Assembly: GCA_965178085.1 (NCBI GenBank)
Contig: CBCXTS010000005.1
Location: 27,811 to 91,810, forward strand
Length of the DNA stretch: 64,000 nt
DNA from: Alphaproteobacteria bacterium
GTDB lineage: Bacteria; Pseudomonadota; Alphaproteobacteria; CBCXTS01
Direction of reading: 5' to 3'
The notes beneath the pieces are model-generated. The model was not told where the DNA came from. It saw only the letters and a list, made by a program, of their open reading frames with translations, and searched no databases. Position numbers and translations under genes: made by a program. Below, piece after piece: positions 15,001-60,368 of this stretch; positions within the stretch are counted from its first letter, which is position 1; each line of letters begins with the position of its first letter.

Positions 15001-18000
15001 ATCGATGATGTACCATCACTCTCAGAGGTTAAGGCCGTAACCGATAAAGTAAATTCTTGGTCTGAATGGGCGCTTGGCGTTACCTGCAAGCCCGATAATT
15101 GACTGGTTTGGATTGTCCATATACCAGCAGATGAAACCGTACCGGCTGACAAGCTAGCACCCGTTGGCACATTAGATATATAGACAACCAATGTCTCGGT
15201 GCCATCACTATCAATGGCAATGGCTGATATAGCAAGATTAATTGCTTGATCTTCAAAACCACTAGCGCTTACGACACCAAATGAGGCGGTATCGGCTATA
15301 CCCGATACCGTAACTGCAAGATCACTGGTCGTAAATACCGATGATGTACCATCACTCTCAGAGGTCAAGGCCGTAACTGACAAAGTAAATTCATTGTCTG
15401 AATGGGCGCTTGGCGTTACTTGCAAGCCTGATAATTGACTGGTTTGTAACGTCCAAACACCAGATGATGAGACCGTACCTGCTGATAGCTTTGCTCCCGT
15501 TGGCACATTTGATATATAAACAACCAACGTTTCACTACCATCAGTATCCATCACCGAGGTAGAAATTGTAAGCCCAATCGCTTGGTCTTCAACGGTCGAT
15601 GCAGACATTGTCCCCAACGCTGCCGTATCGGCTATACCAGATACCGTAACTGCAAGATCACTGGTCGTAAATACCGATGATGTACCATCACTCTCAGAGG
15701 TCAGTGCCGTAACCGACAATGTAAACTCATTGTCTGAATGGACAGGTGGCGTAATTTGCAAACCTGATAATTGATTGGTTTGTAACGTCCAAATACCAGA
15801 TGATGAAACCGTACCGGCTGACAAGCTAGCCCCCGTTGGCGTGCCAGATATATAAATCACTAATGTTTCACTGCCATCACTATCTATGAGCGAACTAGAA
15901 ATTGTAAGCCCAATCGCTTGGTCTTCAATAGTAGATGCAGACATTGTCCCCAACGCTGCTGTATCAGCTATACCCGATACCGTAACCGCAAGATCACTTG
16001 TGGTAAAGATCGATGATGTGCCATCACTCTCAGAGGTTAAGGCCGTAACCGATAACGTGAATTCAGCGTCTGAATGCACGCTTGGCGTCACTTGCAAGCT
16101 CGATAATTGATTGGATTGGATTGTCCAAACACCTGATGATGAAACCGTACCGGCTGATAATGTTGCCCCCGTTGGCACACCCGATATATAGACAACCAAT
16201 GTCTCACTACCATCGCTATCAATGGCAATGGCTGATATAGCAAGGTTAATTGCTTGATCTTCAAAACCACTAGCGCTTACAACACCAAATGAGGCGGTAT
16301 CGGCTATACCCGATACCGTAACTGCAAGGTCACTGGTAGTAAATACCGATGATGTACCATCACTCTCAGAGGTTAATGCCGTAATCGATAATGTAAATTC
16401 ATTATCCAGATGCGCAGGTGGTGTAACCTGCAAGCCTGATAATTGACTGGTTTGTAACGTCCAAACACCACCCGATGAAACCGTGCCTGCTGAAAGTGTT
16501 GCACCCGTTGGAACGTTTGATATGTAAACAACCAATGTTTCACTACCATCGGTATCTATCACCGAGGTAGAAATTACAAGATTGACCCCTTGGTCTTCAA
16601 ACCCACTAGCACTTACAACATCCAAAGAAGCGGTATCGGCTGTACCTGATACTGTAACTGCCAATGCAGATGTAGTAAATATCGATGATGAGCCGTCATC
16701 TTCAGAAGTTAGCGACGTAACCGACAAGGTAAATTCTTGATCTGAATGCACGCTTGGCGTAATTTGTAAACCTGATAATTGGCTGGTTTGTAATGTCCAG
16801 ACACCAGATGATGAAACCGTACCCGCTGATAGCTTAGCACCCGTTGGTACGCTTGATATATAAACAACCAACGTTTCACTACCATCGGTATCTATAACCG
16901 AGGTAGAAATTGCAAGATTGATCCCTTGATCTTCAAAGCCACTGGCGCTGATCACATCTAACGATGCCGTATCAGCTACGCCAGATATCTTAACTTGAAG
17001 ATCTGCAACTGCAAAAACAGACGATGTGCCATCATCTTCGGAGGTAACAACTGTAACTGATAAAGTAAGATCAAGATGTGAATGCGCAGGAGGTATTGCT
17101 GTTAAACCCGATAACTGGCTAGTTTGCAATGTCCACACACCAGCCGACGATACTGTACCCGCTGAAAGTGATATCCCTGTACGCAAATTGCTAACGTACA
17201 ATACGATCGTTTCACTACCATCTGTATCTAAAATAGCAGGAGATATATCAAGATGAAATGTTTGATCTTCCAAACCGCTCAAACTTAATCGTTGCAATGC
17301 CGCGGTATCTGCTATGCCTGACACCGTAACTGCAAGATCACTTGTGGTAAATATCGATGATGTGCCGTCATCTTCAGATGTAAGTGCCGTAACCGATAAC
17401 GTGAAGTCCTGGTCTGAATGGGCGCTTGGCGTTACCTGCAAGCCCGATAATTGACTGGGTTGTAATGTCCAAACACCAGCCGATGAAACCGTACCTGTCG
17501 AAAGTACTACACCCGTTGGCACATTAGATATATAGACAACCAATGTCTCAGAGCCGTCGCTGTCAATAGCAATGGCTGATATAGCAAGATCAATTGCTTG
17601 ATCTTCAAAGCCACTGGCACTCATCACACCAAACGAAGCCGTATCGGCTATACCCGATACCGTAATTGCAAGGTCACTGGTCGTAAATACCGATGATGTA
17701 CCATCACTCTCAGAGGTCAAGGCCGTAACCGACAAGGTAAACTCATTGTCTGAATGGACAGGTGGCGTTATCTGCAAACCTGATAATTGGCTGGTTTGCA
17801 ATGTCCAAATACCAGATGATGAGACCGTACCTGCCGATAGTTTGGCTCCCGTTGGAGCACCTGATATATAAACAACCAACGTCTCACTACCATCACTATC
17901 AACAAATGAGGTAGAAATTGTAATACCTATCGCTTGATCTTCAACGGTTGATGTATCAATTGTTTGCAGTGGCGCCGTATCAGCTATACCCGATACCGTA

Positions 18001-21000
18001 ACTGCAAGATCACTAGTAATGAAAATTGATGATGTACCATCACTCTCAGAGGTCAAGGCCGTAACCGATAGGGTAAATTCTTGATCTGAATGCAATGGTG
18101 GCGTTACCTGCAAACCCGATAATTGACTTGTCTGCAATGTCCAAACACCTAATGATGAAACCGTACCGGCTGATAATCTTGCCCCCGTTGGGGTACCCGA
18201 TATATAAACAACCAACGTCTCACTACCATCACTATCAACAAATGAGGTAGAAATTGTAATTCCTACTGTTTGATCTTCTAGCGTAGAGGCATCAACTGTT
18301 CCCAAGCGCGCTGTATCAGCAATAGCCGATACCGTAACTGCAATATTGCCTGTCGTGAAACTCGATGACGTGCCATCATCTTCAGAAGTGATAGCCGTAA
18401 CCGATAACGTGAATTCAGCGTCTGAATGTACAGGTGGAGTTACTTGCAAACCCGATAATTGATTGGATTGGATTGTCCAAACACCAGTTGATGATGCCGT
18501 ACCTGCTGATAGCTTTGCTCCCGTTGGAAGATCGCCAATGTAAAGGACAAGTGTTTCGCTACCATCTGTATCTAATATTGCAGATGATATCACAATATTG
18601 ATGCCTTGATCTTCAAAACCACTGGCTGCTATTTGTTGCAAGGCAGGAGTATCGGCTATACCCGATACCGTAACTGCAATATTGCCCGTTGTGATGTTTG
18701 ATGATGTGCCGTCATCTTCAGAGGTTAATGCCGTAACCGACAAGGTAAATTCATTGTCTGAATGCACGGGTGGCGTTACTTGTAAACCTGATAATTGATT
18801 GGATTGGATTGTCCAAACACCAGCCGATGATGCCGTACCTGCTGATAGCTTAGCTCCCGTTGGAAGATTGCCAATATAAAGAACGAGTGTTTCGCTGCCA
18901 TCTGTATCTAATATTGCAGATGATATCACAATATTGATGCCTTGATCTTCAAAACCACTGGCTTGAATTTGTTGCAAAGCGGGAGTGTCGGCTATGCCCG
19001 ATACCGTCACTGCAAGATCACTGGTCGTAAATACCGATGATGTACCATCACTCTCAGAGGTCAAGGCCGTAACCGACAAAGTAAATTCATTGTCTGAATG
19101 GACAGGTGGCGTTACCTGCAAACCCGATAATTGACTTGTTTGGATTGTCCATATACCAACCGATGAAACCGTACCTGCTGATAGCTTAGCTCCCGTTGGC
19201 ACTCCCGATATATAAATAACCAATGTCTCACTACCATCAGTATCTATCACCGAAGTAGAAATTGTAAGCCCTATCGCTTGATCTTCAACGGTAGATGCAG
19301 ACATTGTCTCCAACGCTGCCGTATCAGCTATACCCGATATCGTAACTGCAAGATCACTGGTCGTAAATACCGATGATGTACCATCACTCTCAGAGGTCAA
19401 GGCCGTAACCGACAAGGTAAACTCATTGTCTGAGTGCGCAGGTGGCGTTATCTGCAAGCCTGATAATTGGCTGGTTTGCAATGTCCAAATACCAGATGAT
19501 GAGACCGTACCTGCCGATAGTTTGGCTCCCGTTGGAGCACCTGATATATAAACAACCAACGTCTCACTACCATCACTATCAACAAATGAGGTAGAAATTG
19601 TAATACCTATCACTTGATCTTCAACGATCGATGTATCAATTGTTTGCAGTGGTACCGTGTCAGCTATACCCGATACCGTAACTGCAAGATCACTTGTGGT
19701 AAAGATCGATGATGTGCCATCACTCTCAGAGGTCAAGGCCGTAACCGATAACGTGAAATCTTCATCTGAATGCATAAAGGGCGTAATTTGCAAACCTGAT
19801 AATTGATTGGTTTGCAATGTCCAAACACCTGATGATGAAACCGTACCGGCTGATAATCTTGCCCCCGTTGGGGTACCCGATATATAAACAACCAACGTCT
19901 CACTACCATCACTATCAACAAATGAGGTAGAAATTGTAATTCCTACTGTTTGATCTTCTAGCGTAGAGGCATCAACTGTTCCCAAGCGCGCTGTATCAGC
20001 AATAGCCGATACTGTGACCGCAAGATCACTGGTCGTAAATACCGATGATGTACCATCATCTTCAGAGGTGAGTGCCGTAACCGATAACGTGAATTCAGCG
20101 TCTGAATGGACAGGTGGCGTTACTTGCAAACCCGATAATTGATTGGATTGGATTGTCCAAACACCAGCCGATGATGCCGTACCCGCTGATAGCTTGGCAC
20201 CCGTTGGAACGTTTGATATATAAACAACCAACGTCTCACTGCCATCGGTATCGACTAGCGATGATGAAATAATAAGAGGAATGCTTGTATCTTCAAGCCC
20301 GCTAGCTATAAGACCATCTAATTTAGCTGTATCGGCTATACCCGATACCGTAACTGCAATATTGCCCGTTGTGATGTTTGATGATGTGCCGTCATCTTCA
20401 GAGGTTAATGCCGTAACCGACAAGGTAAATTCATTGTCTGAATGCACGGGTGGCGTTACTTGTAAACCTGATAATTGATTGGATTGGATTGTCCAAACAC
20501 CAGCCGATGATGCCGTACCTGCTGATAGCTTAGCTCCCGTTGGAAGATTGCCAATATAAAGAACGAGTGTTTCGCTGCCATCTGTATCTAATATTGCAGA
20601 TGATATCACAATATTGATGCCTTGATCTTCAAAACCACTGGCTTGAATTTGTTGCAAAGCAGGAGTGTCGGCTATGCCCGATACCGTCACTGCAAGATCA
20701 CTGGTCGTAAATACCGATGATGTACCATCACTCTCAGAGGTCAAGGCCGTAACCGACAAAGTAAATTCATTGTCTGAATGGACAGGTGGGGTTACCTGCA
20801 AGCCCGATAATTGACTTGTTTGCAATGTCCATATACCAACCGATGAAACCGTACCTGCTGATAGCTTAGCTCCCGTTGGCACACCCGATATATAAATAAC
20901 CAATGTCTCACTACCATCAGTATCTATCACCGAAGTAGAAATTGTAAGCCCTATCGCTTGATCTTCAACGGTAGATGCAGACATTGTCTCCAACGCTGCC

Positions 21001-24000
21001 GTATCAGCTATACCCGATATCGTAACTGCAAGATCACTGGTCGTAAATACCGATGATGTACCATCACTCTCAGAGGTCAAGGCCGTAACCGACAATGTAA
21101 ATTCATTGTCTGAGTGCGCAGGTGGCGTTATCTGCAAGCCTGATAATTGGCTGGTTTGCAATGTCCAAATACCAGATGATGAGACCGTACCTGCCGATAG
21201 TTTGGCTCCCGTTGGAGCACCTGATATATAAACAACCAACGTCTCACTACCATCACTATCAACAAATGAGGTAGAAATTGTAATACCTATCACTTGATCT
21301 TCAACGATCGATGTATCAATTGTTTGCAGTGGTACCGTATCAGCTATACCCGATACCGTAACTGCAAGATCACTAGTAATGAAAATTGATGATGTACCAT
21401 CACTCTCAGAGGTCAAGGCCGTAACCGATAACGTGAAATCTTGATCCGAGTGTAGCCACGGTATAACTTGCAAGCCCGATAATTGACTTGTCTGCAATGT
21501 CCAAATACCAGATGATGAGACCGTACCGGCTGATAATCTTACCCCCGTTGGGGTACCCGATATATAAACAACCAACGTCTCACTACCATCACTATCAACA
21601 AATGAGGTAGAAATTGTAATTCCTACTGTTTGATCTTCTAACGTAGAGGCATCAACTGTTCCCAAGCGCGCTGTATCAGCAATAGCCGATACTGTGACCG
21701 CAAGATCAGAACTTGTTACAACCGAAGAAGTGCCATCATCTTCAGAGGTGAGTGCCGTAACCGATAACGTGAATTCAGCGTCTAAATGGACAGGTGGCGT
21801 TACTTGCAAACCCGATAATTGATTGGATTGGATTGTCCAAACACCAGCCGATGAAACCGTACCCGCTGATAGCTTGGCACCCGTTGGAACGTTTGATATA
21901 TAAACAACCAACGTCTCACTGCCATCGGTATCGACTAGCGATGATGAAATAATAAGAGGAATGCCTGTATCTTCAAGCCCGCTAGCTATAAGACCATCTA
22001 ATTTAGCTGTATCAGCAACACCCGATATCCTAACCATAAGTTCTGCCGTAGAAAAAACCGACGATGTACCATCATCTTCAGAGGTAAGCGCCGTAACCGA
22101 TAAGGTAAAGTCTCGATCCGAGTGCAACGGTGGTACGATATATAAACCTGATAATTGACTGGTTTGTAATGTCCAAACACCTGAAGAAGCTACTGTACCC
22201 GATGAAAGCATTACCCCTGAAGGTAAGTTGGTAAGATATACGATAATCGTTTCACTACCATCTGTATCCAAAATTGCAGGCGATATATCAAGTACAACTC
22301 GTTGATCTTCAAGCCCACTTAAATTCAATCGCTGCAGCGCTGGAGTGTCGGCTATACCTGATACCGTCACTGCAAGATCACTGGTAGTAAATACCGATGA
22401 TGTACCATCACTCTCAGAGGTCAAAGCCGTAACCGACAAAGTAAATTCATTGTCTGAGTGCGCAGGTGGCGTTACCTGCAAGCCCGATAATTGACTTGTT
22501 TGCAATGTCCATATACCAACCGATGAAACCGTACCTGCTGATAGCTTTGCTCCCGTTGGCACACCCGATATATAAATAACCAATGTCTCACTACCATCAG
22601 TATCTATCACCGAAGTAGAAATTGTAAGCCCTATCGCTTGGTCTTCAACGGTCGATGCAGACATTGTCTCCAACGCTGCCGTATCGGCTATACCCGATAT
22701 CGTAACTGCAAGATCACTGGTCGTAAATACCGATGATGTACCATCACTCTCAGAGGTCAAGGCCGTAACCGACAAGGTAAACTCATTGTCTGAGTGCGCA
22801 GGTGGCGTTATCTGCAAACCTGATAATTGGCTGGTTTGCAATGTCCAAATACCAGATGATGAGACCGTACCTGCCGATAGTTTGGCTCCCGTTGGAGCAC
22901 CTGATATATAAACAACCAACGTCTCACTACCATCACTATCAACAAATGAGGTAGAAATTGTAATACCTATCGCTTGATCTTCAACGATCGATATATCAAT
23001 TGTTTGCAGTGGTACCGTGTCGGCTATACCCGATACCGTAACTGCAAGATCACTAGTAATGAAAACTGATGATGTACCGTCATCTTCAGAGGTCAAGGCC
23101 GTAACCGATAACGTGAAATCTTGATCCGAGTGTAGCCACGGTATAACTTGCAAGCCCGATAATTGACTTGTCTGCAATGTCCAAACACCTGATGATGAAA
23201 CCGTACCCGTTGATAGCTTAGCACCCGTTGGGGTACCCGATATATAAACAACCAACGTCTCACTACCATCACTATCAACAAATGAGGTAGAAATTGTAAT
23301 CCCTACTGTTTGATCTTCTAGCGTAGAGGCATCAACTGTTCCCAAGCGCGCTGTATCAGCAATAGCCGATACCGTAACTGCAATATTGCCTGTCGTGAAA
23401 CTCGATGACGTGCCATCATCTTCAGAAGTGATAGCCGTAACCGATAACGTGAATTCAGCGTCTGAATGTACAGGTGGCGTTACTTGCAAACCCGATAATT
23501 GATTGGATTGGATTGTCCAAACACCAGCCGATGATGCCGTACCTGCTGATAGCTTAGCTCCCGTTGGAAGATCGCCAATATAAAGGACAAGTGTTTCGCT
23601 GCCATCTGTATCTAATATTGCAGATGATATCACAATATTGATGCCTTGATCTTCAAAACCACTGGCTGCTATTTGTTGCAAGGCAGGAGTATCGGCTATA
23701 CCCGATACCGTAACTGCAATATTGCCCGTTGTGATGTTTGATGATGTGCCGTCATCTTCAGAGGTTAATGCCGTAACCGACAAGGTAAATTCATTGTCTG
23801 AATGCACGGGTGGCGTTACTTGTAAACCTGATAATTGATTGGATTGGATTGTCCAAACACCAGCCGATGATGCCGTACCTGCTGATAGCTTAGCTCCCGT
23901 TGGAAGATTGCCAATATAAAGAACGAGTGTTTCGCTGCCATCTGTATCTAATATTGCAGATGATATCACAATATTGATGCCTTGATCTTCAAAACCACTG

Positions 24001-27000
24001 GCTTGAATTTGTTGCAAAGCGGGAGTGTCGGCTATGCCCGATACCGTCACTGCAAGATCACTGGTCGTAAATACCGATGATGTACCATCACTCTCAGAGG
24101 TCAAGGCCGTAACCGACAAAGTAAATTCATTGTCTGAATGGGCGCTTGGCGTTACCTGCAAGCCCGATAATTGACTTGTTTGCAATGTCCATATACCAAC
24201 CGATGAAACCGTACCTGCTGATAGCTTTGCTCCCGTTGGCACACCCGATATATAAATAACCAATGTCTCACTACCATCAGTATCTATCACCGAAGTAGAA
24301 ATTGTAAGCCCTATCGCTTGGTCTTCAACGGTCGATGCAGACATTGTCTCCAACGCTGCCGTATCGGCTATACCCGATATCGTAACTGCAAGATCACTGG
24401 TCGTAAATACCGATGATGTACCATCACTCTCAGAGGTCAAGGCCGTAACCGACAAGGTAAACTCATTGTCTGAGTGCGCAGGTGGCGTTATCTGCAAACC
24501 TGATAATTGGCTGGTTTGCAATGTCCAAATACCAGATGATGAGACCGTACCTGCCGATAGTTTGGCTCCCGTTGGAGCACCTGATATATAAACAACCAAC
24601 GTCTCACTACCATCACTATCAACAAATGAGGTAGAAATTGTAATACCTATCGCTTGATCTTCAACGATCGATATATCAATTGTTTGCAGTGGCGCCGTAT
24701 CAGCTATACCCGATACCGTAACTGCAAGATCACTAGTAATGAAAATTGATGATGTACCGTCATCTTCAGAGGTCAAGGCCGTAACCGATAACGTGAAATC
24801 TTGATCCGAGTGTAGCGACGGTATAACTTGCAAGCCCGATAATTGACTTGTCTGCAATGTCCAAATACCAGATGATGAAACCGTACCGGCTGATAATCTT
24901 GCCCCCGTTGGGGTACCCGATATATAAACAACCAACGTCTCACTACCATCACTATCAACAAATGAGGTAGAAATTGTAATTCCTACTGTTTGATCTTCTA
25001 ACGTAGAGGCATCAACTGTTCCCAAGCGCGCTGTATCAGCAATAGCCGATACTGTGACCGCAAGATCAGAACTTGTTACAACCGAAGAAGTGCCATCATC
25101 TTCAGAGGTGAGTGCCGTAACCGATAACGTGAATTCAGCGTCTGAATGGACAGGTGGCGTTACTTGCAAACCCGATAATTGATTGGATTGGATTGTCCAA
25201 ACACCAGCCGATGAAACCGTACCCGCTGATAGCTTGGCACCCGTTGGAACGTTTGATATATAAACAACCAACGTCTCACTGCCATCGGTATCGACTAGCG
25301 ATGATGAAATAATAAGAGGAATGCCTGTATCTTCAAGCCCGCTAGCTATAAGACCATCTAATTTAGCTGTATCAGCAACACCCGATATCCTAACCATAAG
25401 TTCTGCCGTAGAAAAAACCGACGATGTACCATCATCTTCAGAGGTAAGCGCCGTAATCGATAAGGTAAAGTCTCGATCCGAGTGCAACGGTGGTACGATA
25501 TGCAAACCTGATAATTGACTGGCTTGTAATGTCCAAACACCTGAAGAAGCTATTGTACCCGATGAAAGCATTACCCCTGAAGGTAAGTTGGTAAGATATA
25601 CGATAAGCGTTTCACTACCATCTGTATCCAAAATTGCAGGCGATATATCAAGTACAACTCGTTGATCTTCAAGCCCACTTAAATTCAATCGCTGCAGCGC
25701 TGGAGTGTCGGCTATACCTGATACCGTCACTGCAAGATCACTGGTAGTAAATACCGATGATGTACCATCACTCTCAGAGGTCAAAGCCGTAACCGACAAA
25801 GTAAATTCATTGTCTGAGTGCGCAGGTGGCGTTACCTGCAAGCCCGATAATTGACTTGTTTGCAATGTCCATATACCAACCGATGAAACCGTACCTGCTG
25901 ATAGCTTAGCTCCCGTTGGCACACCCGATATATAAATAACCAATGTCTCACTACCATCAGTATCTATCACCGAAGTAGAAATTGTAAGCCCTATCGCTTG
26001 GTCTTCAACGGTCGATGCAGACATTGTCTCCAACGCTGCCGTATCGGCTATACCCGATATCGTAACTGCAAGATCACTGGTCGTAAATACCGATGATGTA
26101 CCATCACTCTCAGAGGTCAAGGCCGTAACCGACAAGGTAAACTCATTGTCTGAGTGCGCAGGTGGCGTTATCTGCAAACCTGATAATTGGCTGGTTTGCA
26201 ATGTCCAAATACCAGATGATGAGACCGTACCTGCTGATAATTTGGCTCCCGTTGGAGCACCTGATATATAAACAACCAACGTCTCACTACCATCACTATC
26301 AACAAATGAGGTAGAAATTGTAATACCTATCGCTTGATCTTCAACGATCGATATATCAATTGTTTGCAGTGGCGCCGTATCAGCTATACCCGATACCGTA
26401 ACTGCAAGATCACTAGTAATGAAAATTGATGATGTACCGTCATCTTCAGAGGTCAAGGCCGTAACCGATAACGTGAAATCTTGATCCGAGTGTAGCGACG
26501 GTATAACTTGCAAGCCCGATAATTGACTTGTCTGCAATGTCCAAATACCAGATGATGAAACCGTACCGGCTGATAATCTTACCCCCGTTGGGGTACCCGA
26601 TATATAAACAACCAACGTCTCACTACCATCACTATCAACAAATGAGGTAGAAATTGTAATTCCTACTGTTTGATCTTCTAACGTAGAGGCATCAACTGTT
26701 CCCAAGCGCGCTGTATCAGCAATAGCCGATACTGTGACCGCAAGATCAGAACTTGTTACAACCGAAGAAGTGCCATCATCTTCAGAGGTGAGTGCCGTAA
26801 CCGATAACGTGAATTCAGCGTCTGAATGGACAGGTGGCGTTACTTGCAAACCCGATAATTGATTGGATTGGATTGTCCAAACACCTGATGATGAAACCGT
26901 ACCCGCTGATAGCTTGGCACCCGTTGGAACGTTTGATATATAAACAACCAACGTCTCACTGCCATCGGTATCGACTAGCGATGATGAAATAATAAGAGGA

Positions 27001-30000
27001 ATGCCTGTATCTTCAAGCCCGCTAGCTATAAGACCATCTAATTTAGCTGTATCAGCAACACCCGATATCCTAACCATAAGTTCTGCCGTAGAAAAAACCG
27101 ACGATGTACCATCATCTTCAGAGGTAAGCGCCGTAACCGATAAGGTAAAGTCTCGATCCGAGTGCAACGGTGGTACGATATATAAACCTGATAATTGACT
27201 GGTTTGTAATGTCCAAACACCTGAAGAAGCTACTGTACCCGATGAAAGCATTACCCCTGAAGGTAAGTTGGTAAGATATACGATAATCGTTTCACTACCA
27301 TCTGTATCCAAAATTGCAGGCGATATATCAAGTACAACTCGTTGATCTTCAAGCCCACTTAAATTCAATCGCTGCAGCGCTGCAGTGTCGGCTATACCTG
27401 ATACCGTCACTGCAAGATCACTGGTCGTAAATACCGATGATGTACCATCACTCTCAGAGGTCAAAGCCGTAACCGACAAAGTAAATTCATTGTCTGAGTG
27501 CGCAGGTGGCGTTACCTGCAAGCCCGATAATTGACTTGTTTGCAATGTCCATATACCAACCGATGAAACCGTACCTGCTGATAGCTTAGCTCCCGTTGGC
27601 ACACCCGATATATAAATAACCAATGTCTCACTACCATCAGTATCTATCACCGAAGTAGAAATTGTAAGCCCTATCGCTTGGTCTTCAACGGTCGATGCAG
27701 ACATTGTCTCCAACGCTGCCGTATCGGCTATACCCGATACCGTAACTGTCAATGCACTGGTGGTGAAAATCGATGATGTACCATCACTCTCAGAGGTCAA
27801 GGCCGTAACCGACAATGTAAACTCATCGTCTGAATGGACAGGTGGCGTAATTTGCAAACCTGATAATTGATTGGTTTGTAACGTCCAAATACCAGATGAT
27901 GAGACCGTACCTGCTGATAGTTTAGCTCCCGTTGGAGCACCTGATATATAAACAACTAACGTCTCACTACCATCACTATCAACAAATGAAGTAGAAATTG
28001 TAATACCTATCGCTTGATCTTCAATAGTAGATGCAGACATTGTCCCCAACGCTGCTGTATCGGCTATACCCGATACCCTAACTGCAAGATCACTGGTAGT
28101 AAATATCGATGATGTACCGTCATCTTCAGAGGTCAAAGCCGTAACCGATAGGGTAAATTCTTGATCTGAATGCAATGGTGGCGTTACCTGCAAACCCGAT
28201 AATTGATTGGATTGGATTGTCCAAACACCTGATGATGAAACCGTACCCGCTGATAGCTTGGCACCCGTTGGAACGTTTGATATATAAACAACCAACGTCT
28301 CACTGCCATCGGTATCAATGCGTAAAGCAGAAATAGAAAGCCCTATCGCTTGATCTTCAAACCCGCTAGCACTGATCACTCCAAACGAGGCCGTGTCAGC
28401 AATAGCCGATACTGTGACCGCAAGATCAGCGCTTGTTACAACCGAAGACGTGCCATCATCTTCTGAAGAAATAGCTGTAATTGAAAGCGTAAATTCTTGG
28501 TCTGAATGGGCAAGCGGAGTGATGGTTAACCCTGATAGTTGGTTAGTTTGTATTGTCCATGCACCTGATGATGAAACCGTACCCGCTGATAGCTTAGCAC
28601 CTGTTGGTACATTACCTACATATAGCACTAGCGTTTCACTACCATCTGTATCCAATATTGCAGATGATATTGTAATAGGAATGCCTGTATCTTCAAAACC
28701 ACTAGCGGCTAGTCGCTGCAATGCTGGAGTATCAGCTACACCCGATACCGTAACCGACAGCTCAGTTGTGGTGAAAACCGACGATGTACCGTCATCTTCA
28801 GAGGTGATAGTCGTAACCGATAAGGTAAAGTCTCGATCTGAATGCAGAGGCGGTATGATTTGTAAACCAGCTAATTGACTTGGCTGTAATGTCCAAACAC
28901 CAGTCGATGACAACGTTCCTGATGTCAATGTAGCGCCTGTGATCACACCTGCGATATAAACCACAATCGTCTCGCTACCATCTGTATCAATTAAAGGCGA
29001 TGATATCCCAAGATTGATCGCTTGATCTTCAAAACCACTAGCACTGCTCACCCCAAGCGAGGCCGTATCGGCTATACCCGATACCGTCACTGCAATATCA
29101 CTGGTGGTGAAAACCGATGACGTGCCATCAGCTTCAGAGATGAACGCCGTAACCGACAAAGTAAATTCATTGTCCGAATGGACAGGTGGCGTAATTTGCA
29201 AGCCTGATAATTGACTGGTTTGCAGCGTCCAAATACCAGATGATGAGATCGTACCTGCTGATAGCTTTGCTCCCGTTGGAGCACCTGATATATAAACAAC
29301 CAATGTCTCACTACCATCGCTATCAACAAAGGAGGTAGAAATTGTAAGACCTATCGCTTGATCTTCAACGGTAGATGCGTCGATTGTTTGCAGTGGCGCC
29401 GTATCGGCTATGCCCGATACCGTAACTGCAAGATCACTGGTGGTGAAAATCGATGATGTACCGTCATCTTCAGAGGTCAAGGCCGTAACCGATAACGTAA
29501 AATCTTCATCTGAATGTATAAAGGGCGTAATTTGCAAACCTGATAATTGATTGGTTTGTAACGTCCAAATACCAGATGATGAGACCGTACCTGCTGATAG
29601 TTTGGCTCCCGTTGGAGCACCTGATATATAAACAACCAACGTCTCACTACCATCACTATCAACAAATGAAGTAGAAATTGTAATACCTATCGCTTGATCT
29701 TCAACGGTCGATGTATCAGTTGTTTGCAGTGGCGCCGTATCGGCTATACCCGATACCCTAACTGCAAGATCACTGGTAGTAAATATCGATGATGTACCGT
29801 CATCTTCAGAGGTCAAGGCCGTAACCGATAGGGTAAATTCTTGATCTGAATGCAATGGTGGCGTTACCTGCAAACCCGATAATTGATTGGATTGGATTGT
29901 CCAAACACCTGATGATGAAACCGTACCCGCTGATAGCTTGGCACCCGTTGGAACGTTTGATATATAAACAACCAACGTCTCACTGCCATCGGTATCAATG

Positions 30001-33000
30001 CGTAAAGCAGAAATAGAAAGCCCTATCGCTTGATCTTCAAACCCGCTAGCACTGATCACTCCAAACGAGGCCGTGTCAGCAATAGCCGATACTGTGACCG
30101 CAAGATCAGCGCTTGTTACAACCGAAGACGTGCCATCATCTTCTGAAGAAATAGCTGTAATTGAAAGCGTAAATTCTTGGTCTGAATGGGCAAGCGGAGT
30201 GATGGTTAACCCTGATAGTTGGTTAGTTTGTATTGTCCATGCACCTGATGATGAAACCGTACCCGCTGATAGCTTAGCACCTGTTGGTACATTACCTACA
30301 TATAGCACTAGCGTTTCACTACCATCTGTATCCAATATTGCAGATGATATTGTAATAGGAATGCCTGTATCTTCAAAACCACTAGCGGCTAGTCGCTGCA
30401 ATGCTGGAGTATCAGCTACACCCGATACCGTAACCGACAGCTCAGTTGTGGTGAAAACCGACGATGTACCGTCATCTTCAGAGGTGATAGTCGTAACCGA
30501 TAAGGTAAAGTCTCGATCTGAATGCAGAGGCGGTATGATTTGTAAACCAGCTAATTGACTTGGCTGTAATGTCCAAACACCAGTCGATGACAACGTTCCT
30601 GATGTCAATGTAGCGCCTGTGATCACACCTGCGATATAAACCACAATCGTCTCGCTACCATCTGTATCAATTAAAGGCGATGATATCCCAAGATTGATCG
30701 CTTGATCTTCAAAACCACTAGCACTGCTCACCCCAAGCGAGGCCGTATCGGCTATACCCGATACCGTCACTGCAATATCACTGGTGGTGAAAACCGATGA
30801 CGTGCCATCAGCTTCAGAGATGAACGCCGTAACCGACAAAGTAAATTCATTGTCCGAATGGACAAGTGGCGTAATTTGCAAGCCTGATAATTGACTGGTT
30901 TGCAGCGTCCAAATACCAGATGATGAGATCGTACCTGCTGATAGCTTTGCTCCCGTTGGAGCACCTGATATATAAACAACCAATGTCTCACTACCATCGC
31001 TATCAACAAAGGAGGTAGAAATTGTAAGACCTATCGCTTGATCTTCAACGGTAGATGCGTCGATTGTTTGCAGTGGCGCCGTATCGGCTATGCCCGATAC
31101 CGTAACTGCAAGATCACTGGTGGTGAAAATCGATGATGTACCGTCATCTTCAGAGGTCAAGGCCGTAACCGATAACGTAAAATCTTCATCTGAATGTATA
31201 AAGGGCGTAATTTGCAAACCTGATAATTGATTGGTTTGTAACGTCCAAATACCAGATGATGAGACCGTACCTGCTGATAGTTTGGCTCCCGTTGGAGCAC
31301 CTGATATATAAACAACCAACGTCTCACTACCATCACTATCAACAAATGAAGTAGAAATTGTAATACCTATCGCTTGATCTTCAACGGTCGATGTATCAGT
31401 TGTTTGCAGTGGCGCCGTATCGGCTATACCCGATACCCTAACTGCAAGATCACTGGTAGTAAATATCGATGATGTACCGTCATCTTCAGAGGTCAAGGCC
31501 GTAACCGATAATGTAAAATCTTGATCTGAATGCAATGGTGGCGTTACCTGCAAACCCGATAATTGATTGGATTGGATTGTCCAAACACCTGATGATGAAA
31601 CCGTACCCGCTGATAGCTTGGCACCCGTTGGAACGTTTGATATATAAACAACCAACGTCTCACTGCCATCGGTATCAATGCGTAAAGCAGAAATAGAAAG
31701 CCCTATCGCTTGATCTTCAAACCCGCTAGCACTGATCACTCCAAACGAGGCCGTGTCAGCAATAGCCGATACTGTGACCGCAAGATCAGCGCTTGTTACA
31801 ACCGAAGACGTGCCATCATCTTCTGAAGAAATAGCTGTAATTGAAAGCGTAAATTCTTGGTCTGAATGGGCAAGCGGAGTGATGGTTAACCCTGATAATT
31901 GGTTAGTTTGTATTGTCCATACACCTGATGATGAAACCGTACCCGCTGATAGCTTAGCACCTGTTGGTATATTGTCTACATATAGCACTAGCGTTTCACT
32001 ACCATCTGTATCCAATATTGCAGATGATATTGTAATAGGAATGCCTGTATCTTCAAAACCACTAGCGGCTAGTCGCTGCAATGCTGGAGTATCAGCTACA
32101 CCCGATACCGTAACCGACAGCTCAGTTGTGGTGAAAACCGACGATGTACCGTCATCTTCAGAGGTGATAGTCGTAACCGATAAGGTAAAGTCTCGATCTG
32201 AATGCAGAGGCGGTATGATTTGTAAACCAGCTAATTGACTTGGCTGTAATGTCCAAACACCAGTCGATGACAACGTTCCTGATGTCAATGTAGCGCCTGT
32301 GATCACACCTGTGATATAAACCACAATCGTCTCGCTACCATCTGTATCAATTAAAGGCGATGATATCCCAAGATTGATCGCTTGATCTTCAAAACCACTA
32401 GCACTGCTCACCCCAAACGATGCCGTATCGGCTATACCCGATACCGTCACTGCAAGATTACTAGTCGTGAAAATCGATGACGTGCCATCAGCTTCAGAGG
32501 TAAGTGCTGTAATCGATAATGTGAAATCTTGATCCGAATGAGCAGATGGTGTTACTTGCAAACCCGACAATTGACTGGTTTGCAGCGTCCATTGGCCAGA
32601 TGATGAGATCGTACCTGCTGATAGCTTAGCACCCGTTGGCACGCCCGATATATAAACCACTAACGTCTCACTACCATCGCTATCAACAAAGAAGGTAGAA
32701 ATTGTAATACCTATCGCTTGATCTTCAACGGTAGATGCGTCGATTGTTTGCAGTGAGGCCGTATCGGCTATACCCGATACCCTAACTGCAAGATCACTGG
32801 TAGTAAATATCGACGATGCACCGTCATTTTCAGAGGTAAGCGCCGTAACCGACAATGTAAATTCATTGTCTGAGTGCGCAGGTGGCGTAATTTGCAAACC
32901 TGATAATTGATTGGTTTGTAACGTCCAAATACCAGATGATGAGACCGTACCTGCTGATAGTTTGGCTCCCGTTGGAGCACCTGATATATAAACAACCAAT

Positions 33001-36000
33001 GTCTCAGAACCGTCAGTATCAATGAGCGTAGTCGATATAATAAGATCAACGCTTTTATCTTCTACTGTCGAGGTATTTTGCACCCGCAGAACAGGAACAT
33101 CTGCCTCACCATACAATGTAACAACAAGATCTACTCTGCTTGCTAAAGAAGAAACACCGTCTCTTTCGGATGTTGTTGTGATAACAGTAAGGGTAAAATC
33201 TTCATTCGAATGAACAGGTGGAATCAAGTTTAATCCAGCAAGTTCACCCTTGCTTAAAGTCCATAATCCACCCGAAACTGTACCAGCAGTCAAACTAGCA
33301 CGCGGTGGTACGTTACTAATATAAATAATTGCAGTCTCACTGCCGTCTGTATCAACAATAGTTGCAACAATATCAAGAGAAACAACGCTATCTTCTAAAC
33401 CACTGATGTTTGAAAAGCTAAGCTGTGCTGTATCTGCTACCCCAACAACTTTAACGCTAATATCAGCCGTCGTAAAAACCGAAGAATTTGTATCATTTTC
33501 TGATGTAATAGCAGTAACCGATAAGGTAAAGTCTTGATCCGAATGAACAGGCGGTATTACTGCTAACCCTGAAACCAGTCCACCAGAAACAGTCCACACA
33601 GAAGAATGTAAAACCCCTGCAGAAAGCTTTGCACCTGCTGGTACATTTGAAACATAAACCACTAATGTTTCCGATGCATCCGTATCAACCAGAACAACTG
33701 AAAGACCAAGCGTAATTATAGTATCTTCCAAACCACACGTATCTTGCACTACAAGACTTACCGTATCTGCAACTCCTGTTAAATTAATGGTTATCATATT
33801 GGTTGTGATGACGCTACCAATTGCTTGATCTTCTGAGGTAACAGCTGTAACAGAAAGTGTAAAATCATATGCAGAATGTGCTGGTGCTTTCAGTTCTAGC
33901 CCTGAAAGTTCTGCCAATGAAACCGTCCATACATTATTGGCTAACGTTCCTGAAGACAAAAAAGAGTCTGTTGGAACGTTTGCAATGTAAAGTATTAACG
34001 TTTCAGAACCATCGGTGTCTTGCAATCCCAAAAAGGAGCTTAATATAATAGCATGATCTTCTGTTCCAGGGATCGCAGAAGTTAAAATATCACCAGCATC
34101 AATAACTGGCGCAATGGTAATATTTGATTGCGTTTTGCTAAGAACTTCATGCTCTCCATCTTTGATTACAACCAACGCTGTAATAGCAAAATTTCCTGAA
34201 TAATGCGCTGGAGGTGTGACAATTAAATCATTGCCAAATATCCTATATTCATTCAAATTTAACATCCAACGACCATTGGATTGTAGCGTTCCATGGTTCA
34301 AACGGGCTTGAGTTGGAAGAATAAACTCTACCTGGTGCAAACTATCGCCTGAACCTATAATGCCTACAGATAATTTTAATGAAAACCCTACATCTTCTGT
34401 GAGCATAGGATCCACAGTAATTGAAAGTGTTGGGATAGTAGCTAAAGAAGTAGCAACTGGAAGATTCTTGGGAGCGCCCAAAACAATAGCATCTTGATCA
34501 AGTATTGAAATTTGTAAATTAAAATTACCTTGATCAATTGGAGATATCAGATTGAGATTATCAAGCTCTGTCGTTGACAGTGTATATCTGCCATCTGGTT
34601 GACGTGTGCCACTACTTAAGCTGCTTAGTGCTGGAACACCGCCAATGACAACGCTAGTGGCAGGAACATCTACCAATGCAACAGAGCGAAATAATGCAAG
34701 AGGAAATAAAGGAGCGGTTATTGGCTGAGAATCAGGCGCTGTTGGCTGTAACAGAACAGCTCCTGAAATTTCAATTTGTTCAATTTCTCCAATCGTAACA
34801 CCTAGGCTTGTAAATTCGTATCTACCTTGTGCATTCAAACGAGAAAGGACAGATGAATTAGTAACGCTTCCTTGTTGCAATTGCTGTTGTAATATCTGTA
34901 AATCAAAAACATCAGAGCGGACATTTAAATTGCTAGCCAAAAGATCATTAGGACTAATCTTAACAACCAAACGGTCAATTCCTGCACCACCTGAAGCTAG
35001 GTCCTGCTGAGAAGCAATAGTTCCCGTACCTTGACTGGCAACAAATAACGTGTCATCTCCAAACCCACCATAAAGCTTATCAGCACCGCCTTCACCATCA
35101 AGAGCATCATTGCCAAACTCTCCAAATATAATATCATCCCCATCGCCACCTGATATTTGATCACCACTACTTGCAAGCAACTCCACTGACACCGTTGAAT
35201 GCAAAACCTGCGGATTAGTGTCTCCAACAACACTCGTAACCGACAGTGTGAACTCAGGTGTGCCAGATGCAATACCCGTGATTCTTAAGCTACTGAGGTT
35301 TGCAATAATTTTATCTGTATAAGGAAATGAAAACTGGCCCGTGCCCTCAGGCGTTGGGTAAATAGCAAATCCATCTTGATCAAAAAGTTCAAGCGATTGC
35401 CCTGGTTGCAAACCGCTAATAATCATTCGATCAAGCGGACCATCGGGGATAGGAGACCCTTGATATTTCAATGGAACCAATGCAACAAAAATAGAAGAAC
35501 CCATTACCACTTGTGGCGGATTGCCATCAATAAAGCTTGCTCCATAATCACCAAACAAAACCTGATTAGCTGCTTCTCCTTGTATACGATCGCTACCTCC
35601 TCCTCCACTAAAGGTAGCGGCATTCGTCACAGAAGATACTGTGTTAATATTTTGCAAATCTACAACACTAGTGTTTGCGTTTAAAATTAATGAAAACCCA
35701 TTATCAATGGGTTGAGCCGTAGGAACTGGCGGCAAGGTAATCTCATCGCTAGACCCTGAAAAAGGATCAAAACTTGATGGAACTGAGGGCAAGCTTACAA
35801 TAGGCAGTAATGGCAAAGACGGCCCAATAGGAGTAACAGAACTGCTAGAGGTATCACTGGTTGGCAAAACATCATCAACCGATGATATTGTATCGCTTAA
35901 ACTCACAATATCGCTTTGCGAAGACGATAAAACATTATTAGAAACATTCGCTGTTTGGATGATGTTGAGAGCATTTCTTTGTTCTACTTCATCAACAACA

Positions 36001-37076
36001 AAAACGTCTTCTGGATTTTGTGTAAATTCATCCAAAGTTTTAGGAGCTTCAATACTTGGTCTTAAAGCTTGAACATTTTCAACAAAAGTTGTTTCACGTC
36101 TAGCAAACTCACTATCCAATGTAGGTATTGCACCAAATTGAGCAATATCTTCTATGCTACCTTCTGTGGTATCTTCTGTGGTGTCTTCTGTGGTGTTATT
36201 GCCATCACTTGGTAAAGGAAGACCTTCAGGAGCATCCGATACTGCCAGCAAATCAATAGAAGATTGGATACTATTAGGAACCGTTGCCAAGCCATCATCC
36301 AAATCGGATGTGGCGCTGTTAGGATCAAAGGCAATTAAAGAACCTGTATCTTCTATTTCATCTAATAATTCATCAATAAAAATAAAATTTCCATCGCCTA
36401 AAACAAGAATAGGCGATAAGGCTCTAATGCTTTCGATATCTTCAATATCAAAGATCAGTTCATTGCCATTGGCTAATAAAATTCTAAATTGAAATTGATC
36501 AAGGACAATAGAGCTCGCACTGGCTAAAAGCGCACGGATATCATTAGCGCTCAAATTAACGTCCAGCACCATCCCTGGCTCAAGCAAGATATTTTGTCTA
36601 TCTGTTTGAGACAAATCTCCGATAGCAAAAGCAAGTTCAGGTGATATATTAATTTGTTGGCGCAATCTTTGTAAAAAGCCTGGATCTGTACGACTTAACT
36701 TTATGGTCAAATCTCGAGCATCTTGCGTTTCGACAAGTCTACCTTCTATCGTTGTATTACTGCCAGCTTGCAAAATAGAATGATCTCTGCTCCCTTCATA
36801 ACGATGCTCAATAAACAACTCTTTCTCATCAAGGGGTGCATTAGACTCATTATCAATGTTTTTTGTAGTCGTTATAGAATCATCCCTAGTGTTGGCATGC
36901 TCAATGTTAGACGATACATCTGTTTCTGCTTGCGCTTCATTGCTGTTGCGGGTCAAGTAGTTTGGTTGAGGTTGTGCCACCTCATCAGTTGAAGAGTTTA
37001 AAACACCATCAGACAAAACCTCGCTAGAGGCGCTTGCGCTTCCAAGGTCTGTTGTTGTTTTATTATCTTCGGCCAT
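1..37076 (-). CDS. Giant tandem-repeat adhesin-like protein, 5' portion (N-terminus in window; >12,350 codons, no stop before window edge). Probable RTX-family type I secretion substrate: no Sec signal peptide, RTX nonapeptide motif, ~100 tandem 112-aa Ig-like domains.
   Basis: Hand translation of the reverse strand from ATG at 37074-37076 (in-frame TAA 18 nt upstream) stays open through all segments examined. N-terminus [24 protein letters not shown]... Repeat domains read ..[71 protein letters not shown].. The ORF track lists no long ORF here because the stop lies outside the window. Confidence 0.8.
   Translation of the reverse strand, partial: [12358 protein letters not shown]
4400..34020 (-). 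repeat. Coding tandem array of ~90-100 units of 336 bp (112 aa Ig-like domain), organised in 1680/1686-bp higher-order repeats
   Basis: Landmark motif tgcaagcctgataattgactggtt recurs at 6001, 6337 and 6673 (336-bp spacing). Track ORF pairs recur at 1680/1686-bp and multiples (8146/9832, 7004/8690/10376, 21961/25321/27001, 28393/30073/31753). Confidence 0.9.
28050..32410 (-). repeat. Near-identical (~2.6 copies) 1680-bp higher-order tandem repeat inside the giant gene
   Basis: 60-nt lines at 28261/29941/31621, 28321/30001/31681 and 28981/30661/32341 are identical. The 161-aa track ORFs at 28393, 30073 and 31753 are identical between copies 1 and 2, and copy 3 differs at 4 residues. Identity breaks at ~28,040 and ~32,410. 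Confidence 0.85.
35041..35160 (-). other. RTX-type Ca-binding nonapeptide (GGxGxDxUx) triple repeat within the N-terminal region of the giant protein
   Basis: Reverse-strand translation gives [37 protein letters not shown]. Confidence 0.6.
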
Positions 37077-37289
37077 TGATGTTGGTTTGTTTTAAGCTTG
37101 TATAGGTGAACATTTGTTGTTCAATTTTACTGTGCCTTGTTACGTTTTATTTTGGCTAGCCATTTGATGGCGTCCCAGCGTCCATCATGTACTAATACAA
37201 AACTGACTATATAGTATCGCGTATCAATAACATTTTTATATAAGCATAACAAGCTAGTTCAAGCATTTTTGTAAATATAAAATAAAATT

Positions 37290-48120: not shown

Positions 48121-48127
48121 GATAACT

Positions 48128-49504: not shown

Positions 49505-49516
49505 ACTAATTTGCCA

Positions 49517-50803: not shown

Positions 50804-50879
50804 TGGATCGATAGCTTAATGCATCATATTGATTTGATAACGCACTTCAAAAGACAGCTTTAATGGCATGGTTAATAAA

Positions 50880-60102: not shown

Positions 60103-60368
60103 ATGATTATAAATCCTTCAAAATTAATAAAACAGTTTATCTTCTATCATAAATAATTATATAAATCACCTGATCTATTGTTAATGTTATCAAACATTCA
60201 TTTTAAAAACTTCCAACTTGCGTTCAATACCAAGTCCAATACCAAGTTCAAAGCCAAGTTTAATAGCAATTGCAATAATAATTTGCTTGCAATACTAATA
60301 TACTTTGTTCATGCCAGCTACTTGCTAGTCACAAACTATATCCAATGCTTGTAAGACTTGTTGATTGC

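What the first reader, a model, noticed from the sequence alone, without database searches (positions are those of the whole stretch)
28050..32410. Near-perfect ~2.6-copy 1680-bp tandem duplication (assembly and evolution flag)
Copies beginning ~28,050, ~29,730 and ~31,410 are identical over whole 60-nt lines and differ by only a handful of substitutions over >4 kb (for example copy-3 residues N/T/I/S versus S/A/T/P in the 161-aa track ORF). This indicates very recent amplification. It is also exactly the kind of structure that short-read assemblers collapse or expand, so the true copy number here is uncertain.
Basis: seen in the sequence. Interest (0 to 1): 0.6.

Follow-up and report, generated by a model that had tools for sequence, protein, structure and literature searches.

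The report
Five-domain super-repeat inside giant adhesin-like gene
The near-perfect 1,680-bp triplication is real, but it is only the youngest in-frame duplication of a five-domain block inside a minus-strand gene of at least 37 kb that encodes about 97 copies of a 112-residue beta-sandwich domain, a familiar kind of repeat growth in giant bacterial surface proteins.

Summary
Window 28,057-32,416 holds 2.6 copies of a 1,680-bp unit, with 11 mismatches in 2,680 compared positions.

1,680 bp is 5 x 336 bp. The base 336-bp (112-aa) repeat runs from about 4.2 to 34.4 kb. It lies inside one stop-free minus-strand frame, 37,076..3, of at least 12,358 aa that leaves the window.

The same five-unit period covers almost the whole array:
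- six more copies at 17.6-28.0 kb, with some units 100% identical 1,680 or 5,040 bp apart
- an older trace at about 10.9-15.3 kb
- a 1,686-bp variant at 6.5-10.4 kb

A related 7,609-aa protein elsewhere also shows it.

Units evolve under purifying selection (dN/dS about 0.22). The AF2 model is all-beta, and its best fold matches are cadherin ectodomains and SiiE. No Pfam model reaches threshold.

Best reading: this is the extender stalk of a giant calcium-binding, RTX-adhesin-like surface protein. It grows by unequal homologous recombination between blocks five domains apart.

The copy number cannot be verified here. The 1,047-bp exact repeat does exceed short-read reach, so the assembly caveat stands. 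Each copy carries private variants, which argues against an artificial expansion.

Ordinary in kind; modest interest.

The parts
3..37076 (-). Giant open reading frame, at least 12,358 aa from the ATG at 37,076. The stop-free frame runs 37,091..3 and leaves the window at its left end, so the C-terminus is not seen.
   Evidence: The six-frame scan finds a single 12,363-codon stop-free stretch. The first start codon is at 37,076. dN/dS between units is 0.21-0.25 in this frame.
28057..32416 (-). The flagged block: 2.6 copies of a 1,680-bp (560-aa, five-domain) super-repeat with unit types CDEFG-CDEFG-CDE. Copy 1 is 28,057-29,736, copy 2 is 29,737-31,416, and the partial copy 3 is 31,417-32,416 (the N-terminal side in the protein, about aa 1,559-3,012).
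   Evidence: 11 mismatches in 2,680 positions. In the true frame these are 4 synonymous and 7 non-synonymous differences.
17604..28019 (-). Second, larger zone of the same five-unit super-repeat: a leading M-like unit, then IJKLM IJKLM INOLM IJKLM INK.M INO.M (six copies). Some units are 100% identical at 1,680 or 5,040 bp distance.
   Evidence: Exact repeats of 546, 540 and 493 bp are listed.
10884..15251 (-). Older trace of the five-unit period, with units 89-96% identical at a lag of 5.
6520..10390 (-). Fourth zone: about 2.3 copies of a 1,686-bp super-repeat (five units, one of them 114 aa), 89-100% identical.
   Evidence: A 437-bp exact repeat links 7,645 and 9,331. The 114-aa units are seen.
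4179..34394 (-). Contiguous array of about 90 tandem 111-114-aa domains with a 336-bp period. This is the presumed extender stalk.
   Evidence: HMM of the unit. TRF. Nine invariant acidic positions per unit. The AF2 model is all-beta with pLDDT 67. Foldseek's top matches are cadherin ectodomains at E=1e-8 and SiiE at 1e-6.
34956..35237 (-). RTX-type calcium-binding nonapeptide repeats within the N-terminal region (aa about 614-707).
   Evidence: Pfam PF00353, E=6.5e-8, 32.8 bits against a cut-off of 23. NCBIfam RTX-family partial matches.
35319..37076 (-). N-terminal region of about 586 aa with no recognisable family and no hydrophobic signal peptide.
   Evidence: (only one weak hit, and that to the RTX motif).
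837..4178 (-). Distal region in which divergent repeat units alternate with three related 180-213-aa insert domains (3,636-4,178; 2,094-2,633; 837-1,475). These are candidate ligand-binding modules.
   Evidence: 36% identity between inserts 1 and 2. No Pfam hit. Only one matching protein among 1.84 billion representatives.
28393..32238 (+). Three copies of a 161-aa plus-strand ORF (28,393-28,878; 30,073-30,558; 31,753-32,238). They are antisense artefacts of the repeat, not genes.
   Evidence: They lie wholly inside the selected minus-strand frame.

Best explanation
The flagged sequence is the youngest part of a higher-order tandem repeat inside one giant minus-strand gene. The gene encodes an N-terminal region of about 900 aa that includes RTX calcium-binding nonapeptides. 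This is followed by about 90 back-to-back 112-aa beta-sandwich domains of cadherin/bacterial-Ig type with invariant acidic residues. A distal region then interrupts the domains with three novel ~180-213-aa modules. The C-terminus lies outside the window. The domains come in sets of five different types, which are 58-83% identical to each other as protein. The whole five-domain block (1,680 bp) is what gets duplicated. This most likely happens by RecA-type unequal homologous recombination, or by replication slippage, between blocks in register. Every such event adds or removes exactly 560 aa in frame. At 28.06-32.42 kb this happened twice recently: first copy 3 split from the ancestor of copies 1 and 2, and then copies 1 and 2 split from each other. 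By analogy with RTX adhesins, the array is inferred to be a calcium-stiffened stalk that projects the distal modules away from the cell, so block gain or loss changes stalk length. Shown here: the repeat anatomy, the reading frame, purifying selection, the two-step order of duplication, and the beta-sandwich fold at moderate model confidence. Inferred: the recombination mechanism, calcium binding, surface location, type I secretion and the stalk function.
For: Repeat anatomy. A single 12,363-codon open frame on the minus strand. dN/dS of 0.21-0.25 at every divergence level. All duplications keep the frame and the 336-bp register. Copies 1 and 2 share derived states while copy 3 keeps the ancestral state. 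Protein identity is 90% at a lag of 5 units against 74% between neighbours. Fold: AF2 all-beta model, with Foldseek matches to cadherin ectodomains at E=1e-8 and the SiiE adhesin at 1e-6. Homologues at 51% identity or less carry PF17803, PF17892, PF17963 and PF00353, and sources name them Ig-like or calcium-binding proteins. RTX nonapeptides. A related 7,609-aa protein, P0242, has the same 560-aa period (85% identity at lag 560 against 72% at lag 112). GC3 is similar to the flanking genes (0.33 against 0.29), so the higher GC of the gene reflects amino-acid composition. Literature precedent: about 120 DNA-identical 104-aa extender repeats in MpAFP/MpIBP (PMC4083281), calcium in the linkers of RTX-adhesin extenders (PMC7493085), and recombination-driven length variation in Periscope Proteins (PMC8201768).
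Against: The C-terminus and any type I secretion signal lie outside the window. No T1SS genes occur in the 27 kb to the right of the gene. The unit reaches no Pfam threshold; the best match is Cadherin_4 at 15.8 bits against a cut-off of 25.1. It has no PDB sequence match. No NCBIfam family other than partial, far-below-cutoff RTX-family matches hit the N-terminal 1,359 aa, so no adhesin retention-module family was detected. The RTX nonapeptides lie near the N-terminus, not the C-terminus as in classical RTX adhesins. The structural model has only moderate confidence (pLDDT 67, pTM 0.39). No second strain or assembly was available, so repeat-number variation and the assembled copy number are unverified.
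Confidence: 0.78

Rival explanations
1. Assembly artefact. The 2.6 copies were created or miscounted by the assembler, and the true locus has a different number of 1,680-bp blocks.
For: The exact repeats of 1,047 and 645 bp exceed short-read and insert lengths, and such arrays are known to be collapsed or misjudged (PMC6868369). No independent assembly could be found for comparison.
Against: Each copy has private variants, and copy 3 keeps ancestral bases that copies 1 and 2 have lost. An artificial duplication would not produce that pattern. The 37-kb frame is intact. The source contig is 445 kb long, and the window crosses 27 kb of repeats, which suggests long reads were used. The same period recurs elsewhere in the gene and in P0242. 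A collapse, meaning more copies in reality, is not excluded.
Confidence: 0.15
2. The repeat is non-coding satellite-like DNA or a decaying pseudogene, and the plus-strand 161-aa ORFs are the real genes.
For: The 161-aa ORFs exist in three copies. The unit has no Pfam assignment.
Against: A 12,363-codon stop-free frame on the minus strand cannot arise by chance. dN/dS is about 0.22 in that frame. Hundreds of protein homologues align to that frame. All unit lengths are multiples of three.
Confidence: 0.02
3. The five-domain period is a selected structural unit, like the titin or nebulin super-repeats, rather than a by-product of recombination. The duplication is then selected because it adds whole functional modules.
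For: The period of five units holds across about 27 kb. It is shared by a second giant protein that is 65-72% identical. A distinctive junction between types C and D recurs in every block and in P0242. Identical domains are never adjacent, which fits the idea that neighbouring identical domains risk misfolding (PMC8201768).
Against: Unit types are more similar within each protein than between the two proteins. That is the signature of concerted evolution, which by itself can generate and maintain higher-order periods. There are no structural or functional data.
Confidence: 0.2

Closest known systems
RTX adhesins with tandem beta-sandwich extender regions (MpIBP/MpAFP of Marinomonas primoryensis, SiiE of Salmonella, LapA-type proteins)
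   Same: A very large protein made mostly of dozens to about 120 tandem domains of roughly 100 aa. The domains are beta-sandwiches of Ig/cadherin type and carry conserved acidic residues. Non-repeat modules sit near the distal end, and RTX nonapeptides are present. In MpAFP the repeats are DNA-identical (PMC4083281, PMC7493085). The fold search hits SiiE.
   Different: No adhesin-type family hit the N-terminal 1,359 aa in NCBIfam. The N-terminal 586 aa and the insert domains are orphans. The RTX motif lies near the N-terminus. The C-terminal secretion signal and any T1SS genes are unseen. The repeats are organised as five-type super-repeats, not as one homogeneous unit.
Periscope Proteins (SasG, Rib, Sgo_0707, CdrA)
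   Same: Tandem folded domains with high DNA identity are expected to allow intragenic recombination and therefore stalk-length variation (PMC8201768).
   Different: Here the near-identical copies lie five domains apart, and neighbouring domains are only about 74% identical. Length variation between strains, the defining observation for the class, could not be tested.
Bacterial cadherin-like / Big_9 domain families (Pfam PF17803, PF17892, PF17963)
   Same: Homologues at 51% identity or less carry these domains. The best fold matches are cadherin ectodomains. DxDGSE- and ADT-type acidic motifs lie at the domain boundaries.
   Different: The units themselves score below threshold: Cadherin_4 at E=0.02 and 15.8 bits against a cut-off of 25.1.
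Higher-order repeats and super-repeats (alpha-satellite HORs; the titin and nebulin domain super-repeats). This comparison rests on general knowledge, not on a tool result.
   Same: A short unit diverges into several types, and the multi-unit block is then amplified and homogenised as a whole.
   Different: Those are eukaryotic. Here the pattern lies inside a bacterial coding sequence under purifying selection.

Membership tests
RTX adhesin (LapA / MpIBP / SiiE type) | Central extender region of many tandem beta-sandwich domains of about 80-120 aa | tested here: met
   About 90 contiguous 112-aa units. All-beta AF2 model. Foldseek matches to cadherins and SiiE.
RTX adhesin (LapA / MpIBP / SiiE type) | RTX nonapeptide repeats and a type I secretion signal at the C-terminus | not testable with these tools
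   The C-terminus lies outside the window. RTX nonapeptides are present, but at aa about 614-707 near the N-terminus. The C-terminal 951 aa of the related P0242 have no Pfam or NCBIfam hit.
RTX adhesin (LapA / MpIBP / SiiE type) | N-terminal retention module | tested here: not met
   NCBIfam and Pfam scans of the N-terminal 1,359 aa return only RTX-type partial matches. The first 894 aa have no homologue apart from one weak RTX-motif hit. That NCBIfam contains a retention-module model is my recollection, not something checked here.
RTX adhesin (LapA / MpIBP / SiiE type) | Adjacent type I secretion genes (ABC transporter, membrane fusion protein, TolC-like) | tested here: inconclusive
   None is present in the 27 kb to the right of the gene, which holds lspA, ileS and housekeeping genes. 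The other side lies outside the window.
RTX adhesin (LapA / MpIBP / SiiE type) | Calcium bound in the inter-domain linkers | not testable with these tools
   Nine invariant Asp/Glu per unit are consistent with this but do not prove it.
Periscope Proteins | Long tandem repeats of folded domains with high DNA identity | tested here: met
   Blocks are 99.6% identical. Twenty exact repeats of at least 250 bp cover 11.25 kb. The identity holds at a distance of five units, not between neighbours.
Periscope Proteins | Repeat-number variation between strains | not testable with these tools
   No second assembly of this organism was found.
Pfam Cadherin_4 (PF17803), bacterial cadherin-like domain | Score at or above the Pfam gathering threshold | tested here: not met
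   15.8 bits against 25.1, E=0.02. No hit at E below 0.01.

The most novel reading that the evidence does not exclude
The five-domain (560-aa) super-repeat is a conserved, selected building block of a previously undescribed family of giant surface proteins from a deep-branching alphaproteobacterium-like lineage. Amplifying whole five-domain blocks would let the cell change stalk length quickly while never placing identical domains side by side. It would be a bacterial counterpart of the titin or nebulin super-repeats. The orphan ~180-213-aa insert domains, found in only one other protein among 1.84 billion representatives, would be new ligand-binding modules.
Probability: 0.2. Interest if true: 0.55.

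Novelty: new member of a known kind. Interest (0 to 1): 0.3.

Why it matters
For the scan, the flag resolves into a giant gene, not a suspect intergenic duplication. The window holds at least 37 kb of one coding sequence. Any annotation that calls the 161-aa plus-strand ORFs, or that splits the gene, is wrong.

For biology, it is a clean example of how giant bacterial surface proteins grow. A five-domain block is copied in frame, repeatedly, with the order of events still readable from shared derived bases. The protein exceeds 12,000 aa, a size class reported as rare (10.1101/2023.11.21.568195). It comes from a lineage whose IleRS is only 60% identical to the nearest other sequence. Its terminal and insert modules have essentially no relatives.

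None of this changes current understanding. DNA-identical extender repeats and recombination-driven length change are already well documented.

Tried and rejected
- **Finding other assemblies of the locus.** Exact-protein look-ups of lspA, citrate synthase, the JmjC protein, the 100%-identical IleRS P0122 and P0242 all returned nothing. A GTDB scan with the N-terminal region gave no relatives. Two JGI metagenome scans, one with a unique 40-mer and one with the commonest 24-mer of the repeat, gave no matches.
- **Naming the organism.** The best IleRS among GTDB representatives is 52% identical and comes from an alphaproteobacterial MAG. In the protein collection the next-best is 60%. The cluster record carries no name.
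- **Conserved position next to ileS-lspA.** No homologous repeats lie within 10 kb of ileS in 80 related loci.
- **Family assignment by HMM.** No Pfam or NCBIfam model reaches its threshold for the unit, the first ~586 aa of the N-terminal region, the inserts, or the C-terminus of P0242; the one above-threshold hit anywhere is PF00353 at aa ~643-677. PDB sequence and profile searches were empty.
- **Structure of the insert domain.** With a 3-sequence alignment the model was unusable (pLDDT 30), so no fold search was run on it.
- **Promoter and terminator scan upstream of the gene.** Nothing exceeded the shuffled expectation.
- **Strict one-to-one correspondence of unit types between the window protein and P0242.** Rejected, because within-protein similarity is higher than between-protein similarity.
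- **Horizontal transfer as the cause of the higher GC.** Rejected as unsupported. The excess lies at codon position 2, not position 3.
Full report

Yes. Comparing the window with itself at a lag of 1,680 bp gives near-identity from 28,057 to 30,736, with partner positions up to 32,416. That is 4,360 bp, or 2.6 copies, with 11 mismatches in 2,680 compared positions.

Copies 1 (28,057-29,736) and 2 (29,737-31,416) differ at two positions. Copy 2 and the partial copy 3 (31,417-32,416) differ at nine. The longest exact repeat is 1,047 bp.

**2.

1,680 bp is 5 x 336 bp. Tandem Repeats Finder reports one 336-bp array from 5,656 to 33,024 with 81.4 copies. The repeat finder shows 27 in-register copies at exactly 336-bp spacing in the 24-33 kb stretch alone.

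The whole array lies in a single stop-free frame on the minus strand, from 37,091 down to base 3. That is 12,363 codons running off the left edge of the window, with the first ATG at 37,076. No other frame has an open stretch above 1,000 codons. The 161-aa ORFs are therefore antisense artefacts that recur only because the underlying DNA recurs.

An HMM built from the units finds about 90 contiguous 111-114-aa copies (aa 900-10,971; window 4,179-34,394). Eight more divergent copies lie further on.

Between units, dN/dS in the minus frame is 0.21-0.25 at every level of divergence. The frame is therefore translated and under purifying selection.

**3. Higher-order structure**

I clustered the 336-bp units at 93% DNA identity or more. 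Read from N to C, this gives the string ..CDEFG CDEFG CDE. IJKLM IJKLM INOLM IJKLM INK.M INO.M ....

- The flagged block is (CDEFG) x 2.6.
- Directly after it comes a second zone of six five-unit copies (17,604-28,019). Some of its units are 100% identical at 1,680 or 5,040 bp distance, for example 27,012-27,347 = 21,972-22,307 and 23,652-23,987 = 18,612-18,947.
- A weaker period-5 trace occupies about 10.9-15.3 kb.
- A fourth zone at about 6.5-10.4 kb repeats with a 1,686-bp period, because one of its five units is 114 aa. It is 89-100% identical.

Twenty exact repeats of at least 250 bp cover 11.25 kb of the gene. Mean protein identity is 90% at a lag of five units but 74% between neighbours.

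**4. History of the flagged block**

Of the 11 differences, 4 are synonymous and 7 are non-synonymous, affecting 6 codons in the true frame.

At 30,218 and 30,241, copies 1 and 2 share a G. Copy 3 carries the A found in every other unit of the array. Copy 3 therefore separated first, and copies 1 and 2 arose from a later duplication, so the history has at least two steps.

Every copy has at least one private variant. That is hard to reconcile with an assembler simply writing the same block twice.

**5. What the protein is**

The unit has nine invariant acidic residues, including a DxDGSE motif and an ADT motif near the domain boundary. A three-unit AlphaFold model is all-beta at moderate confidence (pLDDT 67). 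Foldseek against the PDB ranks cadherin ectodomains first (E=1e-8) and also finds the giant Salmonella adhesin SiiE (E=1e-6).

- Sequence homologues number in the hundreds but are at most 51% identical. They carry Pfam Cadherin_4, Cadherin_5, Big_9 and RTX domains, and their sources call them Ig-like or calcium-binding proteins.
- The units themselves stay below every Pfam threshold. The best is Cadherin_4 at 15.8 bits against a cut-off of 25.1. They have no PDB sequence match.
- The N-terminal region has no signal-peptide-like hydrophobic stretch (read directly) and is an orphan. The exception is a block of RTX nonapeptides at aa about 614-707.
- Toward the distal end, three related 180-213-aa modules interrupt the repeats. 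They have no family. An exhaustive profile search of 1.84 billion representatives finds them in exactly one other protein, P0242, which is 7,609 aa long.

P0242 is a relative, 65-72% identical in the repeats, from an unnamed NCBI contig of 955 kb. Its first 2,500 aa show the same 560-aa period: 85% identity at lag 560 against 72% at lag 112. Its unit types include the same distinctive C-to-D-type junction. However, types are more alike within each protein than between the two proteins, which is the signature of concerted evolution.

**6. Context**

To the right of the gene lie lspA, ileS and ordinary housekeeping genes. There are no secretion genes in those 27 kb.

The gene has 44% GC against 39% in its neighbours. 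The excess is at codon position 2 (0.51 against 0.37) and not at position 3 (0.33 against 0.29). It therefore reflects a Ser/Thr/Ala/Gly-rich composition, not foreign origin.

A 100% identical IleRS sits on a 445-kb NCBI contig. The next-best IleRS is 60% identical, and named relatives at 53-55% are Rhodospirillales-type Alphaproteobacteria. No relative within reach carries such a gene next to ileS. A distant homologue contig, L081, shows a 330-bp array of 39 copies, so arrays of this kind are common in the wider family.

**7. Mechanism**

Best supported: the array is the extender stalk of a giant calcium-binding surface or secreted protein of the RTX-adhesin type. It grows and shrinks by unequal homologous recombination, or by slippage, between five-domain blocks in register. 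Each event changes the protein by exactly 560 aa.

The anatomy, frame, selection, fold class and order of events are shown here. Calcium binding, export, the stalk role and the recombination route are inferred from precedent:
- MpAFP has about 120 DNA-identical 104-aa Ig-like repeats that calcium stiffens into a rod (PMC4083281).
- Extender domains of four RTX adhesins all bind calcium in their linkers (PMC7493085).
- High DNA identity between tandem domains is proposed to drive repeat gain and loss in Periscope Proteins (PMC8201768).

**8. Assembly question**

Exact repeats of 1,047 and 645 bp cannot be bridged by short reads (PMC6868369), so the caveat is legitimate.

Four things speak against a gross artefact: the private variants in each copy, the intact 37-kb frame, the 445-kb contig, and the recurrence of the same period elsewhere. 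None of them fixes the copy number, and a collapse cannot be excluded. I found no independent assembly to compare.

**9. Novelty and score**

Giant proteins above 10,000 aa are uncommon (10.1101/2023.11.21.568195), and the five-type super-repeat is a neat feature. But near-identical in-frame repeat amplification in giant bacterial surface proteins is well known.

I rate this a new member of a known kind, with interest 0.3. The most novel reading still open is that the five-domain block is itself a selected structural module of a new protein family. I give that about 0.2 probability.

Noticed in passing
window 837-4178 (minus strand): 3636-4178, 2094-2633, 837-1475: Three related 180-213-aa modules interrupt the distal repeats. 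They have no Pfam hit. A profile search of 1.84 billion representative proteins finds them in only one other protein, P0242 (7,609 aa). They are candidate novel ligand-binding domains. The AF2 model was unusable (pLDDT 30).
   Followed up: partly
P0242 (protein; NCBI contig of 955,272 bp, unnamed): A second giant protein, 65-72% identical in the repeats. It has the same 560-aa five-domain period, plus a super-repeat of about 729 aa (extender domains plus an insert domain) repeated about six times. Its C-terminal 951 aa match no Pfam or NCBIfam family. Whether it is a paralogue in the same genome is unknown.
   Followed up: partly
window 37795-40659 (ileS) and the flanking genes: The source lineage looks deep-branching. 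Apart from one identical unnamed NCBI entry, the nearest IleRS is 60% identical. Named relatives at 53-55% are Rhodospirillales-type Alphaproteobacteria. GTDB representatives reach only 52%.
   Followed up: partly
window 35319-37076 (minus strand): The first ~586 aa of the giant protein are an orphan region with no signal peptide and no homologue. RTX nonapeptides follow at aa about 614-707, near the N-terminus and not at the usual C-terminal position.
   Followed up: partly
window 36146-36194: A 12-bp tandem repeat of 4.1 copies lies inside the N-terminal coding region and encodes a short TTED-type peptide repeat.
   Followed up: no
window 60222-60277: A 12-bp tandem repeat of 4.7 copies lies near the tat gene cluster (the TatC gene is at 58462-59280). 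Its context was not examined.
   Followed up: no
window 1-37000 versus 37000-64000: GC steps from about 44-47% in the giant gene to about 36-40% in the flanks. Codon-position analysis attributes this to amino-acid composition (GC2 0.51 against 0.37), not to foreign origin (GC3 0.33 against 0.29).
   Followed up: yes
window 47074-52373 (minus strand): This is an apparent glycolate-oxidase-like trio: FAD_binding_4/FAD-oxidase_C, FAD_binding_4, and an Fe-S/CCG protein. The listed ORFs 47074-48228 and 48128-49504 overlap by about 100 nt, probably because the mechanical ORF list picks the most upstream start codon.
   Followed up: no
L081 (ENA contig ERZ25072490:ctg173297, 14.4 kb): The best-scoring homologue contig carries a 330-bp array of 39 copies. 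Its gene calls are broken into several pieces on a 2.4x-coverage long-read contig. This illustrates how such genes get fragmented in public data.
   Followed up: partly
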